Assembly: GCF_054482525.1 (NCBI RefSeq) | Contig: NZ_CM137006.1 | DNA: 64,000 nt | Strand: one strand, 5' to 3' | Part shown: piece by piece, positions 3,336-7,224 of the stretch | Layout of the letters: the number at the start of each line of letters is the position of its first letter | How positions within the stretch are numbered: position 1 is the first letter of the stretch | Notes under the pieces: model-generated | What the model saw: only the letters and a program-made list of their open reading frames with translations | Databases searched by the model: none | What the model was told of the DNA's origin: nothing | Position numbers and translations under genes: made by a program

Positions 3336-3350
3336 TGGGAGGGAATGTGC

Positions 3351-3477
3351 GCGCTGGCCCCCTCACCCTAACCCTCTCCCCAGAGGGGCGAGGGGACCGA
3401 TTGTGCTCGATATTGAATATTGCGCTGGTTTTCTCCCTCGCCCCATTGGGGAGAGGGCCGGGGTGAGGGGCGATGCC
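3351..3477. repeat. Pair of GC-rich boxC-like imperfect palindromic repeats in inverted orientation
   Basis: CCCCTCACCCTAACCCTCTCCCCAGAGGGGCGAGGGGA and its near reverse complement TCCCTCGCCCCATTGGGGAGAGGGCCGGGGTGAGGGG, separated by about 35 bp, in the phnP-yjdP intergenic region. Confidence 0.5.
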
Positions 3478-3493
3478 TGCTCCATACCCAACA

Positions 3494-3823
3494 TCAACGC
3501 CCATACTCATCTTCCATTCTCCGCTCTTCATCTTCTAGCTGCCGACGCTCCTGATCCAGCTGGCGCTGGCGATCGTCCAGCTGCCTGCGGCGATCTTCAA
3601 ACTGGCGGCGGCGATCGTCATATTGTCTGCGCCGATCGTCGTTCACTTCACGCTGCCAGCCGTCGTCGCGCGAATCTTCATAGTCTCGCCCACGGTCAGG
3701 GTTATAAGCGTCGTTAATCGCCTGCTGAATATTGCCAATGGTGTCGTCGATAATATCGGCCTGGGCCGGAACGGTGGACAGCGTGAGCAGGGTGAATAAA
3801 AGAAATAGCGGAAAGCGTTTCAT
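3494..3823 (-). CDS. yjdP: YjdP, small secreted protein with charged RRRQ/DD repeats
   Basis: 109-aa ORF with N-terminal signal peptide (MKRFPLFLLFTLLTLSTVPAQA) and repeated DRRRQ-type motifs. Confidence 0.8.
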   Translation of the reverse strand: MKRFPLFLLFTLLTLSTVPAQADIIDDTIGNIQQAINDAYNPDRGRDYEDSRDDGWQREVNDDRRRQYDDRRRQFEDRRRQLDDRQRQLDQERRQLEDEERRMEDEYGR

Positions 3824-3891
3824 TAGCCAACCTCAAAAAGAAACTCTATCCACATTAGTCATTACTCATCCATGCAAGTAGTGGATGAATC

Positions 3892-4092
3892 TCAATTTCT
3901 CCGCTGCTCTATTGCCGTAATCGCCTCCACGCGTTGTTGATGACGACCGCCTTCGTACTGCGCGCCCAGCCACGCATCCACAATCATTTTTGCCAGTTCG
4001 AGGCCAACCACTCGTGAACCAAAAGCCAGTGCAACTTCACTGGCGTAATGCGGATAATCAGTACGCTCTGACGACCTGGTTTCTTTATCAAT
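3892..4092 (-). pseudogene. rpiB: rpiB remnant (ribose-5-phosphate isomerase B), 3' portion only, with internal deletion
   Basis: Translation contains SSERTDYPHYAS...FGSRVVGLELAKMIVDAWLGAQYEGGRHQQRVEAITAIEQRRN, matching the RpiB C-terminus as recalled; the catalytic-Cys GTG-loop segment and the N-terminus are absent; upstream part of the ORF is not RpiB-like. Confidence 0.6.
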
Positions 4093-4241
4093 CCCCTCAC
4101 TCATTGACCATGAATAAAAGGCTGGCACAGCAACGCAGAATCCTGCGGTGCCAGCGACATGACCGCCCATTGCTCCGGTACGTTTTTTAATAAAAAACAC
4201 CGGTTGCATTGATTAATTGTGCTCAGGGTAATGACTCCAAC

Positions 4242-4745
4242 TTATTGATAGTGTTTTATGTTCAGATAATGCCCGATGACTTTGTCATGCAGCTCCACCG
4301 ATTTTGAGAACGACAGCGACTTCCGTCCCAGCCGTGCCAGGTGCTGCCTCAGATTCAGGTTATGCCGCTCAATTCGCTGCGTATATCGCTTGCTGATTAC
4401 GTGCAGCTTTCCCTTCAGGCGGGATTCATACAGCGGCCAGCCATCCGTCATCCATATCACCACGTCAAAGGGTGACAGCAGGCTCATAAGACGCCCCAGC
4501 GTCGCCATAGTGCGTTCACCGAATACGTGCGCAACAACCGTCTTCCGGAGACTGTCATACGCGTAAAACAGCCAGCGCTGGCGCGATTTAGCCCCGACAT
4601 AGCCCCACTGTTCGTCCATTTCCGCGCAGACGATGACGTCACTGCCCGGCTGTATGCGCGAGGTTACCGACTGCGGCCTGAGTTTTTTAAGTGACGTAAA
4701 ATCGTGTTGAGGCCAACGCCCATAATGCGGGCAGTTGCCCGGCAT
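4242..4745 (-). CDS. insB: IS1 InsB (transposase catalytic part, normally expressed as InsAB' by -1 frameshift)
   Basis: 167-aa ORF overlapping insA 3' end in the -1 frame; canonical IS1 organisation. Confidence 0.9.
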
Positions 4746-4939
4746 CCAACGCCATTCATGGCCATATCAATGATTTTCTGGTGCGTACCGGGTTGAGAAG
4801 CGGTGTAAGTGAACTGCAGTTGCCATGTTTTACGGCAGTGAGAGCAGAGATAGCGCTGATGTCCGGCGGTGCTTTTGCCGTTACGCACCACCCCGTCAGT
4901 AGCTGAACAGGAGGGACAGCTGATAGAAACAGAAGCCAC
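4664..4939 (-). CDS. insA: IS1 InsA
   Basis: 91-aa [46 protein letters not shown], zinc-finger plus HTH, canonical IS1 InsA. Confidence 0.92.
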
Positions 4940-5226
4940 TGGAGCACCTCAAAAACACCATCATACACTAAATCAGTAAGTTGGCAGCATCACCTGTGCT
5001 CAGTATTTGCCGAAGTACAATATATATAATAAATATATAAAACACCTCATATTATTTACAGAGATAATAAATTCGCGTACTTTTCCCTCTTCAGCACAAA
5101 TGCCTAATAAAGTGGCGCGTTCAGCTCACACTTCTACTTATTAAAGTCGCAATTTCCCAATTATGATAACGCCAGCTTTAAATGACGTATTTTGCATGGA
5201 TTACATATTTACGACATAAATGATAA

Positions 5227-7224
5227 ATGGAGATTTATATGAATAACTCTCGGTTATTCCGTTTGAGCAGGATTGTTATTGCGTTAACTGCCGCCAGCGG
5301 CATGATGGTAAATACCGCTTACGCAACAGATGAAGCGAAAGCCGCCACTCAATATACCCAACAGATTAATCAGAATTACGCCAAATCATTACCTTTTAGC
5401 GATCGTCAAGATTTTGACGATGCCCAGCGTGGATTTATCGCTCCGCTGCTGGATGAAGGTATTCTGCGTGATGCTAACGGCAAAGTTTACTACCGCGCAG
5501 ACGATTACAAATTTGATATTAATGCCGCTGCGCCGGAAACCGTAAACCCCAGCCTGTGGCGTCAGTCGCAAATCAACGGTATTTCTGGCCTGTTCAAAGT
5601 CACCGATAAAATGTATCAGGTGCGCGGCCAGGATATCTCTAACATTACGTTCGTTGAGGGCGAGAAAGGCATTATTGTTATCGACCCGCTGGTGACGCCG
5701 CCTGCCGCAAAAGCCGCACTTGATCTTTACTTCCAGCATCGTCCGCAAAAACCGATTGTTGCTGTGATTTACACCCACAGCCACGCCGACCATTATGGCG
5801 GTGTGAAAGGCATTATCTCTGAAGCGGATGTTAAATCCGGCAAAGTGCAGGTGATCGCTCCGGCAGGCTTTATGGACGAAGCCATCAGCGAAAACGTGCT
5901 GGCGGGTAACATCATGAGCCGCCGTGCGCTCTACTCTTACGGTCTGTTACTGCCGCACAACGCGCAAGGCAACGTGGGCAACGGCCTGGGCGTGACGCTG
6001 GCAACCGGCGACCCGAGCATTATTGCACCGACTAAAACTATCGTCAGAACTGGCGAGAAGATGATTATCGACGGCCTGGAGTTTGACTTCCTGATGACTC
6101 CGGGTAGCGAAGCGCCAGCCGAAATGCACTTCTATATTCCGGCCCTGAAAGCCCTGTGTACCGCCGAGAACGCCACGCATACCCTGCACAACTTCTACAC
6201 TCTGCGCGGCGCGAAAACCCGCGATACCAGCAAGTGGACCGAGTACCTGAACGAAACGCTGGATATGTGGGGTAACGACGCGGAAGTACTGTTTATGCCG
6301 CACACCTGGCCGGTCTGGGGCAATAAGCATATCAATGATTATATTGGTAAATATCGCGATACTATCAAGTACATTCACGACCAGACCCTGCACCTGGCGA
6401 ACCAGGGCTACACCATGAATGAAATCGGCGACATGATTAAGCTGCCGCCTGCGCTTGCCAATAACTGGGCCAGCCGCGGCTATTACGGTTCTGTCAGCCA
6501 CAACGCCCGCGCGGTGTATAACTTCTATCTTGGCTATTACGACGGTAACCCGGCTAACCTGCATCCATATGGTCAGGTGGAGATGGGTAAACGTTACGTG
6601 CAAGCTCTGGGCGGTTCTGCCCGCGTCATCAACCTGGCGAAAGAAGCGAACAAGCAAGGTGATTATCGCTGGTCGGCAGAACTGCTGAAACAGGTGATTG
6701 CCGCCAACCCTGGTGACCAGGTCGCGAAGAATCTGCAAGCGAATAACTTTGAACAGCTGGGCTATCAGGCCGAGTCCGCCACCTGGCGCGGTTTCTACCT
6801 GACCGGCGCGAAAGAGCTGCGCGAAGGGGTGCATAAATTCAGCCACGGCACCACCGGTTCCCCGGACACCATTCGCGGAATGTCGGTCGAAATGCTGTTC
6901 GACTTTATGTCCGTTCGCCTCGATAGTGCGAAAGCCGCGGGTAAAAATATCAGCCTGAACTTCAATATGAGCAACGGCGATAACCTCAACCTGACGCTGA
7001 ACGATAGCGTGCTTAACTACCGTAAAACGCTGCAACCTGAAGCCAACGCCTCTTTCTACATCAGCCGTGAAGATCTTCACGCCGTGCTGACCGGACAAGC
7101 CAAAATGGCGGATCTGGTAAAAGCGAAGAAAGCCAAAATTATTGGCAATGGCGCGAAACTGGAAGAAATTATTGCCTGTCTGGATAATTTCGATTTGTGG
7201 GTGAATATCGTAACCCCAAATTAA
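5227..7224 (+). CDS. yjcS: YjcS, MBL-fold alkyl/aryl-sulfatase family protein (BDS1/SdsA1-like), secreted
   Basis: 665-aa ORF with signal peptide and metallo-beta-lactamase motif [10 protein letters not shown]; start may be a few codons downstream. Confidence 0.85.

What the first reader, a model, noticed from the sequence alone, without database searches (positions are those of the whole stretch)
3892..4092. rpiB remnant lacks the catalytic segment through an apparently in-frame internal deletion
The translated remnant reads ...SSERTDYPHYASEVALA|FGSRVVGLELAKMIVDAWLGAQYEGGRHQQRVEAITAIEQRRN. Relative to RpiB as I recall it (149 aa), about 50 residues containing the Cys-bearing GTG loop are missing between ...VALA and FGSRVV, yet the frame is preserved. 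Upstream of IDKE the sequence is no longer RpiB-like, so the 5' breakpoint lies near 4090. This is the signature of at least two separate lesions in the same gene.
Basis: partly seen in the sequence, partly recalled or inferred. Interest (0 to 1): 0.35.

Follow-up and report, generated by a model that had tools for sequence, protein, structure and literature searches.

The report
Dead rpiB relic after allose-operon loss
This is an ordinary, non-functional leftover of the E. coli sugar-isomerase gene rpiB, left when the whole D-allose gene cluster was deleted, and the same relic is carried by about 29% of fully sequenced E. coli genomes.

Summary
Window 3892-4099 (- strand) holds two pieces of E. 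coli rpiB joined in frame. One piece is rpiB nt 84-153 (codons 29-51); the other is nt 319-450 (codons 107-149 plus stop). The 159 bp (53 codons) between them are missing, at a 6-nt direct repeat (CTGGCT). The lost part includes the catalytic Cys66 loop and His99.

It is one edge of a roughly 6.56-kb deletion that removed alsK, alsE, alsC, alsA, alsB, alsR, the rpiB promoter and the first 83 nt of rpiB. The 105-codon ORF (3892-4209) starts at a chance ATG in former intergenic DNA. RefSeq nevertheless names it an "RpiB/LacA/LacB family sugar-phosphate isomerase".

The same double-lesion allele occurs in 1569 of 5426 complete E. coli genomes, and 3398 have intact rpiB. Its junctions were identical in all six alleles I aligned. 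No genome carries only the large deletion. An intermediate carrying only the 159-bp deletion was not seen either, but could hide among at most about 15 unclassified genomes.

This strain alone also has an IS1 (4227-4994, 9-bp target duplication) 17 bp upstream of the ORF. The IS1 is a later insertion and did not cause the deletion.

Loss of the als operon in such strains is already published. The finding is correct but of low interest.

The parts
3892..4023 (-). rpiB 3' fragment: rpiB nt 319-450, codons 107-149 plus the stop codon (FGSRVV...EQRRN*)
   Evidence: It differs from K-12 at 1 of 132 positions and from strain R2 at 3 of 132. It is contiguous with yjdP as in K-12. It matches Pfam PF02502 profile positions 102-138.
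4024..4029 (-). CTGGCT, the single retained copy of the 6-nt direct repeat at the 159-bp deletion junction
   Evidence: K-12 has GCACTGGCTGTTG at nt 151-163 and GTGCTGGCTTTTG at nt 310-322. The remnant has GCACTGGCTTTTG.
4030..4099 (-). rpiB internal 5' fragment: rpiB nt 84-153, codons 29-51, carrying missense changes V30G, G34E and W36R, and E49 where K-12 has Q49
   Evidence: It differs from K-12 at 7 of 70 positions and from R2 at 6 of 70. It is matched as a separate stretch to PDB 1NN4 residues 42-69.
4100..4107 (-). 8 nt (TCAATGAG) at the large-deletion junction that cannot be assigned to either side
   Evidence: This stretch is unaligned between the two BLAST segments. It is identical in all six remnant alleles aligned.
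4108..4159 (-). Antisense of the alsK stop codon, its last sense codon and the DNA downstream of alsK; this is the left edge of the roughly 6.56-kb als deletion
   Evidence: It is 79% identical to K-12 L004 3414-3465. The alsK stop codon is at L004 3460-3462.
4160..4226 (-). Right part of a 77-bp segment specific to the remnant haplotype. It holds a hairpin (CCGGTGTTTTTT..AAAAAACGTACCGG) and the ORF's chance ATG at 4209. Positions 4218-4226 are one copy of the IS1 target duplication.
   Evidence: It is absent from the als+ strains K-12 and R2. It is found only in the 1573 remnant-carrying genomes. The fold is not distinguishable from shuffled sequence: z = -1.2.
3892..4209 (-). 105-codon ORF: 36 codons of former non-coding or antisense DNA, then 23 and 43 RpiB codons, with Leu-Ala at the junction belonging to either. 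It is identical to RefSeq WP_001183282.1, 'RpiB/LacA/LacB family sugar-phosphate isomerase'.
   Evidence: The exact protein is listed in 15,362 blocks of the public collection.
4227..4994 (-). IS1, 768 bp, with insA (4664-4939) and insB' (4242-4745) reading towards the remnant
   Evidence: Pfam matches DDE_Tnp_IS1, HTH_Tnp_IS1 and Zn_ribbon_InsA. The boundaries come from comparison with PCN033. None of the 5426 E. coli genomes has an IS1 at this site.
4995..5003 (-). Second copy of the 9-bp IS1 target-site duplication, CTGAGCACA
   Evidence: PCN033 has a single copy (the two matching segments overlap at L001 4001-4009).
5004..5013 (-). Left 10 nt of the 77-bp haplotype-specific segment, separated from the rest by the IS1

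Best explanation
Window 3892-4209 (- strand) is a non-functional relic of rpiB (also called alsI). It was left when an ancestor lost the D-allose utilisation cluster.

Compared with K-12, the following is shown directly by the sequence:
- A roughly 6.56-kb deletion runs from just after the last codon of alsK to rpiB nt 83. It removed alsK, alsE, alsC, alsA, alsB, alsR (rpiR), the alsR-rpiB promoter region and the first 28 codons of rpiB.
- A 159-bp in-frame deletion between two CTGGCT repeats removed codons 54-106. These include the catalytic base Cys66, Thr68 and His99.
- The isolated 70-nt island between the two junctions carries missense changes at conserved residues (G34E and W36R in all alleles, V30G in this one).
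- A chance ATG in the old yjcS-alsK spacer opens a 105-codon ORF that annotation pipelines call an isomerase.
- In this strain only, an IS1 later inserted 17 bp upstream of that ATG, with a clean 9-bp target duplication.

The following is inferred:
- The small deletion arose by slipped mispairing between the 6-nt repeats, possibly helped by the hairpin GCCAGTG-N6-CACTGGC, whose 3' arm overlaps the left repeat.
- The two deletions were separate events on the long branch leading to the common ancestor of all remnant alleles.
- The 3' fragment stays nearly identical to functional rpiB because it is contiguous with the shared yjdP-phn flank and is exchanged by homologous recombination. The 70-nt island is too short and is bounded by heterology on both sides, so it keeps old divergence and decays.
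- The product, if made at all, cannot be an isomerase.
For: Anatomy: BLAST and pairwise alignments to K-12, to the B2-like als+ strain R2 (phylogroup inferred, not tested) and to PCN033, with coordinates verified.

Synteny: in remnant genomes the order is yjcS, remnant, yjdP, phnP. In K-12 and R2 it is yjcS, alsKECAB, alsR, rpiB, yjdP, phnP.

Loss of function:
- Pfam covers only profile positions 102-138 of 138.
- The match to PDB 1NN4/2VVR is split into two stretches.
- Cys66 is the catalytic base and an H99N mutant loses 26-fold in kcat (PMC4783025). Both residues lie in the deleted part.

Single origin and frequency:
- 1569 genomes carry the remnant and 3398 carry intact rpiB.
- Both junctions and the 8-nt filler are identical in the six alleles aligned, which differ from each other by up to 2.5%.
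- No genome matches a synthetic 'large deletion only' allele.

Decay and age:
- The island differs from K-12 at 7 of 70 positions, against 1 of 132 in the 3' piece (Fisher p = 0.003).
- Three island differences are shared with outgroup rpiB genes, and three are remnant-specific missense changes.
- Frameshifted variants of the ORF exist in genomes (P0004, P0010, P0017, P0028).

IS1 is later and unrelated: it has an intact target duplication and is absent from genomes that are 100% identical over 19 kb.

Phenotype in the literature: EAEC 042 and PCN033 lack the als operon, and 042 does not use D-allose (PMC2808357, PMC4578781).
Against: - The ORF is intact in the great majority of the 1569 carriers. 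Among five alleles the polymorphisms are 5 non-synonymous to 6 synonymous, which is not the excess of non-synonymous change expected for pure drift. The numbers are tiny, and two of the three synonymous sites in the 3' piece are shared with functional alleles.
- The order of the two deletions, and whether they were independent, is not shown.
- The roughly 75-79% identity of the left flank (window about 5014-5073 and 4108-4159) to als+ strains is more than simple decay within E. coli would be expected to give.
Confidence: 0.9

Rival explanations
1. Both discontinuities arose in one complex rearrangement, for example a deletion with template switching that left a 70-76-nt island, rather than in two separate mutational events.
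For: No genome among 5426 carries junction 1 with an intact downstream rpiB. At most about 15 genomes remain unclassified that could carry the 159-bp deletion in an als+ background. The only apparent intermediate, P0002/L100, looks like a metagenome assembly chimera.
Against: The two junctions look different. Junction 2 is a clean 6-nt direct-repeat deletion that keeps the frame. Junction 1 has 8 nt of filler and no visible repeat. The stem branch of the remnant haplotype is long (about 9-10% divergence of the island, against 2.5% or less among remnant alleles). That leaves ample time for two neutral events without surviving intermediates.
Confidence: 0.2
2. The 105-aa ORF, or the retained 3' 138 nt of rpiB, is kept by selection. 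It could act as a small protein with a new role, or as a leader or promoter region for the downstream yjdP gene.
For: The ORF is open in most carriers and RefSeq annotates it as a CDS. The 3' fragment is 99% conserved. The exact protein is extremely common in public data.
Against: - Its first 36 residues come from non-coding or antisense DNA.
- By eye there is no good Shine-Dalgarno sequence before the ATG at 4209 (sequence).
- No sigma-70-like site was found in 3824-4226 on the - strand.
- The fragment lacks about 55% of the RpiB sequence (81 of 149 residues) and all of its catalytic residues.
- Frameshifted variants occur in sequenced genomes.
- The conservation of the 3' piece is explained by recombination with functional alleles, with which it shares polymorphisms.
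Confidence: 0.05
3. The segment comes from a different LacAB/RpiB-family gene, a paralogue or a foreign gene, rather than from rpiB.
For: The 5' island is only about 90% identical to K-12 rpiB. It carries E49, as do rpiB of Citrobacter and of strain SCPM-O-B-8794.
Against: The 3' piece differs from K-12 rpiB at 1 of 132 positions and continues into yjdP without a break. The island is still far closer to Escherichia rpiB (6-9 differences in 70) than to Citrobacter (13-17 in 70) or Klebsiella (20-24 in 70). The position is exactly that of rpiB.
Confidence: 0.01

Closest known systems
E. coli K-12 rpiB (alsI; UniProt P37351; PDB 1NN4, 2VVR), ribose-5-phosphate / allose-6-phosphate isomerase B
   Same: It occupies the same chromosomal position, next to yjdP-phnP. 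The last 132 nt are 99% identical. Codons 29-51 are recognisably the same gene.
   Different: It lacks codons 1-28 (the GCDH motif with Asp9 and His10), codons 54-106 (Cys66, Thr68, His99), its promoter, its regulator alsR and the rest of the als regulon. It carries G34E, W36R and V30G. It cannot be the enzyme.
The als-operon-negative genotype described for EAEC 042 and porcine ExPEC PCN033 (PMC2808357, PMC4578781)
   Same: It is the same locus and, for PCN033, the same sequence: 100% identity over 827 and 406 bp on either side of the IS1. Those papers report absence of the als genes and, for 042, failure to use D-allose.
   Different: [quoted passage not shown] Neither describes the two-piece rpiB relic or its junctions. 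The window also has an IS1 not seen in PCN033 or in any other of the 5426 genomes.
Short-direct-repeat (slipped-mispairing) deletions, as classically described in E. coli lacI (from memory, not tested here)
   Same: One copy of a 6-nt exact repeat is retained at the junction (10 of 13 positions match in the extended repeat). The repeats lie 159 bp apart in the intact gene, and a small hairpin overlaps the left repeat.
   Different: The mechanism is inferred from the junction sequence only. A 6-nt repeat is short enough to occur by chance.

Membership tests
Functional RpiB/LacAB sugar-phosphate isomerase (Pfam PF02502) | Complete domain of about 138 profile positions | tested here: not met
   The Pfam hit covers only profile positions 102-138 of 138 (45.8 bits). 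Against PDB 1NN4 there are two disjoint stretches, chain residues 42-69 and 112-162.
Functional RpiB/LacAB sugar-phosphate isomerase (Pfam PF02502) | Catalytic loop with the Cys66 base and Thr68 (C-G-T-G), plus His99 | tested here: not met
   Residues 54-106 are deleted. The roles of Cys66 and His99 are taken from PMC4783025.
Functional RpiB/LacAB sugar-phosphate isomerase (Pfam PF02502) | N-terminal strand with the G-C-D-H motif (Asp9, His10) | tested here: not met
   rpiB nt 1-83 are absent. ORF residues 1-36 derive from the intergenic spacer and the antisense of the alsK 3' flank.
Orthologue (remnant) of E. coli rpiB | Near-identical DNA and conserved position next to yjdP-phnP | tested here: met
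   1 difference in 132 in the 3' piece and 7 in 70 in the 5' piece, with the same neighbours.
Pseudogene / gene remnant | Loss of the promoter, the start codon and essential coding parts, with missense decay at conserved residues | tested here: met
   The alsR-rpiB intergenic region and rpiB nt 1-83 lie inside the roughly 6.56-kb deletion. G34E and W36R change residues that are invariant from E. coli to Cedecea in the set aligned; only Klebsiella grimontii has Ala at position 34.
IS1 insertion sequence | 768 bp, insA and insB' frames, terminal inverted repeats, 9-bp target duplication | tested here: met
   The 768-bp length comes from comparison with PCN033. Pfam matches the IS1 transposase and InsA domains. 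The target duplication is CTGAGCACA. The inverted repeats were seen by eye only, in the printed ends.
Direct-repeat (slippage) deletion | The same short repeat at both ends in the intact gene, with one copy left at the junction | tested here: met
   CTGGCT lies at rpiB nt 154-159 and 313-318, and a single copy lies at window 4029-4024. The mechanism itself is not testable with these tools.

The most novel reading that the evidence does not exclude
The locus may be an old presence/absence polymorphism. On this reading, the 70-nt island and the left flank are a fossil of an als/rpiB haplotype about as distant from today's E. coli rpiB as a sister species' gene. The evidence is ancestral E49 and other outgroup-shared states, together with 75-79% identity in the flank. 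The 3' piece is continually overwritten by recombination with functional alleles. A bolder version is that the open 105-codon frame or its 3' part is retained because it does something, for instance for yjdP expression.
Probability: 0.3. Interest if true: 0.25.

Novelty: already known. Interest (0 to 1): 0.1.

Why it matters
The finding has little biological significance, but it has some practical consequences.

1. **Annotation.** RefSeq names this 105-aa product an 'RpiB/LacA/LacB family sugar-phosphate isomerase' rather than a pseudogene. Automated metabolic reconstructions of roughly 29% of E. coli genomes could therefore wrongly credit them with a second ribose-5-phosphate isomerase and an allose-6-phosphate isomerase.

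2. **A testable prediction.** From memory of Sørensen & Hove-Jensen 1996 (the paper is cited, but I did not read the suppressor detail), rpiA mutants of K-12 regain growth by derepressing rpiB. Carriers of this allele should have no such escape route.

3. **A marker.** The two fixed junctions are a convenient single-origin marker of the als-negative haplotype.

Tried and rejected
1. **Single-lesion intermediates.**
   - A synthetic query (remnant upstream, then the island, then the K-12 deleted segment and 3' end) found no genome with 80% coverage or more among 5426.
   - The protein search produced P0002 (158 aa), which has exactly that structure. Its only contig is a 2.8x-coverage SPAdes metagenome node that ends 15 nt upstream of the ATG. 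Its sequence is a mosaic of several remnant and als+ alleles. The switch falls inside a 20-nt stretch (CTGATTATCCGCATTACGCC) that is identical in L100, the window-type remnant and the R2 allele. I rejected it as evidence because it is a probable assembly chimera.

2. **IS1 as the cause of the deletion.** Rejected. The 9-bp duplication is intact, and the identical IS-free allele exists in PCN033 and SCU-102.

3. **A different RpiB/LacAB paralogue.** Rejected on identity and synteny.

4. **The remnant in other Escherichia species.** The single genome-contig scan kept only the 80 best (full-length) hits, so short remnant hits were cut off and the question stays open.

5. **A known RNA in or around the remnant.** Rfam gave nothing above threshold.

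6. **Selection on the ORF.** Eleven polymorphic sites in five alleles are too few to test.

7. **Literature.** I found no paper describing the relic's anatomy.

Full report
**Context.** The window is E. coli chromosome. On the + strand it reads phnM, phnN, phnO, phnP. On the - strand come yjdP (3494-3823), a 105-codon ORF (3892-4209), and the IS1 genes insB' (4242-4745) and insA (4664-4939). Back on the + strand come yjcS (5227-7224), ytcA and mdtN/O. Over 19 kb the window is 100% identical to strains SCU-102, 19KM1776 and PCN033.

I aligned the - strand of 3892-4110 to K-12 rpiB (L004 9940-10389) and to rpiB of the B2-like als+ strain R2 (phylogroup inferred, not tested).
- Window 4099-4030 corresponds to rpiB nt 84-153.
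- Window 4023-3892 corresponds to nt 319-450.
- One CTGGCT (4029-4024) could belong to either piece.
- K-12 has GCACTGGCTGTTG at the left end and GTGCTGGCTTTTG at the right end. The remnant has GCACTGGCTTTTG.
- The missing stretch is 159 bp, exactly 53 codons (residues 54-106), so the frame is kept.
- HMMER against PDB RpiB (1NN4, 2VVR) reports two separate stretches. Pfam PF02502 matches only its last 37 profile positions.
- Cys66 is the catalytic base of E. coli RpiB, and H99N costs 26-fold in kcat (PMC4783025). Both residues lie in the lost part.

**The 5' lesion is the edge of a much larger deletion.** Reading upstream from 4099 along the - strand, the sequence is as follows:
- 8 unassignable nt (TCAATGAG, 4107-4100).
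- 52 nt (4159-4108) that are 79% identical to the antisense of the alsK stop codon, its last sense codon and the DNA downstream of alsK (K-12 L004 3414-3465).
- A 77-bp segment absent from the als+ strains K-12 and R2. It is now split by the IS1.
- The yjcS upstream region.

Relative to K-12, L004 3466-10022 (6557 bp) is therefore gone. That interval holds alsK, alsE, alsC, alsA, alsB, alsR, the alsR-rpiB intergenic promoter region and rpiB nt 1-83. The ORF's ATG (4209) lies in the 77-bp spacer segment, so its first 36 codons are not RpiB at all.

**The IS1 is a later, strain-specific addition.** Comparison with PCN033 shows a 768-bp insertion at 4227-4994, flanked by the 9-bp duplication CTGAGCACA (4218-4226 and 4995-5003). 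None of the 5426 complete genomes matched across the IS1/remnant junction. The otherwise identical SCU-102 has no IS1 there. An intact duplication argues against an IS1-mediated adjacent deletion.

**Population picture.**
- With K-12 rpiB plus flanks as the query, 3398 genomes have the full gene.
- With the window's remnant as the query, 1569 genomes have it over its whole non-IS length.
- The remnant-specific upstream 118 nt occurs in 1573 genomes, once each, and never in als+ genomes.
- About 440 genomes have neither.
- The window's allele and five other remnant alleles, differing by up to 2.5%, share both junctions and the 8-nt filler exactly. The allele therefore arose once and is old.
- RefSeq annotates it as WP_001183282.1 / WP_001183287.1 / WP_001183283.1, 'RpiB/LacA/LacB family sugar-phosphate isomerase'.
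- The exact 105-aa sequence is listed in 15,362 blocks of the public gene collection.

**One event or two?**
- A synthetic query for an allele with only the large deletion found no genome.
- At most about 15 genomes remain unclassified, which is the room left for an als+ allele carrying only the 159-bp deletion.
- A protein search did return P0002 (158 aa), which has exactly the 'large deletion only' structure. Its only contig is a 2.8x metagenome node that ends 15 nt before the ATG. Its sequence mixes states of several remnant and als+ alleles. The switch falls inside a 20-nt stretch (CTGATTATCCGCATTACGCC) that is identical in L100, the window-type remnant and the R2 allele. I treat it as a probable assembly chimera.
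- The two junctions differ in kind: one is a clean repeat-mediated in-frame loss, the other has filler and no repeat.
- The island has diverged about 9-10% from functional rpiB, while remnant alleles differ among themselves by 2.5% or less. There was thus a long stem branch on which two neutral events could accumulate.
- I favour two events (about 0.75), but this is inference.

**Uneven divergence.**
- The 70-nt island differs from K-12 at 7 positions, and the 132-nt 3' piece at 1 (Fisher p = 0.003).
- In the island, G at nt 87 is shared with SCPM-O-B-8794 and C. koseri. G at nt 145 (giving E49) and, in some alleles, C at nt 120 are shared with SCPM-O-B-8794 and both Citrobacter rpiB genes. 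These are therefore probably ancestral states.
- G34E, W36R and V30G are remnant-specific changes at conserved residues, as expected for decay.
- Two of the three synonymous polymorphisms in the 3' piece are shared with functional alleles.
- The simplest reading is that the 3' piece, being contiguous with the common yjdP-phn flank, is exchanged with als+ strains by homologous recombination. The island is sealed off between two heterologies.
- The left flank (about 5014-5073) is also only about 75% identical to K-12 and R2, while DNA further out is about 99% identical. This suggests the two haplotypes are old. I could not test this further because the one genome-contig scan kept only full-length hits.

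**Function.**
- No sigma-70-like site was found on the - strand between 3824 and 4226. The only hit is IS1's own promoter region.
- By eye, no good ribosome-binding site precedes the ATG at 4209 (sequence).
- Rfam finds nothing.
- Frameshifted versions of the ORF occur in sequenced genomes.
- The product lacks about 55% of the RpiB sequence (81 of 149 residues) and every catalytic residue.
- I conclude it is a dead relic. The published phenotype fits: EAEC 042 lacks the als operon and does not use D-allose, and PCN033 lacks alsBACEK. Neither paper describes the relic itself, and I found no paper that does.

**Verdict.** The finding is nonetheless an ordinary, widespread pseudogene allele. Its only practical point is that it is mis-annotated as an isomerase.

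Noticed in passing
window 4227-4994 (target duplication at 4218-4226 and 4995-5003): A complete IS1 with a 9-bp target duplication lies between yjcS and the remnant, with its genes reading towards the remnant. It is not present at this site in any of 5426 complete E. coli genomes, including three that are 100% identical over the neighbouring 19 kb.
   Followed up: yes
window 4160-4217 plus 5004-5013 (a 77-bp segment once the IS1 is removed): This segment is present only in the remnant haplotype and absent from the als+ strains K-12 and R2. It holds an imperfect hairpin, CCGGTGTTTTTT-ATT-AAAAAACGTACCGG. Its origin is unknown, and its fold is no better than shuffled sequence (z = -1.2).
   Followed up: partly
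window about 5014-5073 (upstream of yjcS): About 60 bp of the yjcS upstream region are only about 75% identical to K-12 and R2, although the DNA further out is about 99% identical. The two haplotypes (als+ and remnant) seem much older than their flanks.
   Followed up: partly
window 4025-4044 (- strand): The 159-bp deletion junction forms a terminator-like motif: a GCCAGTG-AAGTTG-CACTGGC stem-loop followed by TTTTGGTT. The Q49-to-E49 base difference lengthens the stem to 7 pairs. The number of such motifs in the region was not above shuffled expectation.
   Followed up: no
window 3336-3493 (between phnP and yjdP): There is a long G+C-rich inverted repeat (arms 3359-3394 and 3435-3470, 86% complementary). 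It gives only sub-threshold Rfam hits to plant microRNA hairpins. From memory it resembles the enterobacterial 'box C' type of intergenic repeat. The phnP-yjdP spacing varies between strains from 27 to 158 bp.
   Followed up: partly
L101 3001-3273 (GCA_002924485.1, contig PPYF01188964.1): This is a K-12-identical rpiB, with the als genes intact upstream, that carries a different in-frame deletion of 177 bp. Its right end falls at the same CTGGCT as in the remnant. It is a single contig, and it is unclear whether the deletion is real or an assembly artefact.
   Followed up: partly
L100 1-560 (ENA ERZ507965, NODE_1799): This metagenome contig encodes a 158-aa 'remnant N-terminus plus intact RpiB 29-149' protein. 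It looks like the missing evolutionary intermediate but is a low-coverage mosaic of several alleles that ends at the branch point. It is a probable chimera.
   Followed up: yes
L003 3436-3801 compared with window 3494-3823: yjdP (the DDRRRQL-repeat protein) is 121 aa in strain R2 against 109 aa here and in K-12. This is probably variation in repeat copy number.
   Followed up: no
summary; hits H130 (BS-04) and H178 (CUVET18-1475): A few genomes carry further-rearranged versions of the remnant, with only the 3' piece or with part of the upstream segment missing. One copy of the remnant-specific upstream segment was reported on a record typed as a plasmid.
   Followed up: no
L020 and L021 (E. 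whittamii; 'E. coli' SCPM-O-B-8794): In both, similarity to K-12 runs from alsA through rpiB to the end of yjdP (94.5% and 90% identity) and then stops. phnP is therefore not the next gene there, or is too diverged to match.
   Followed up: no
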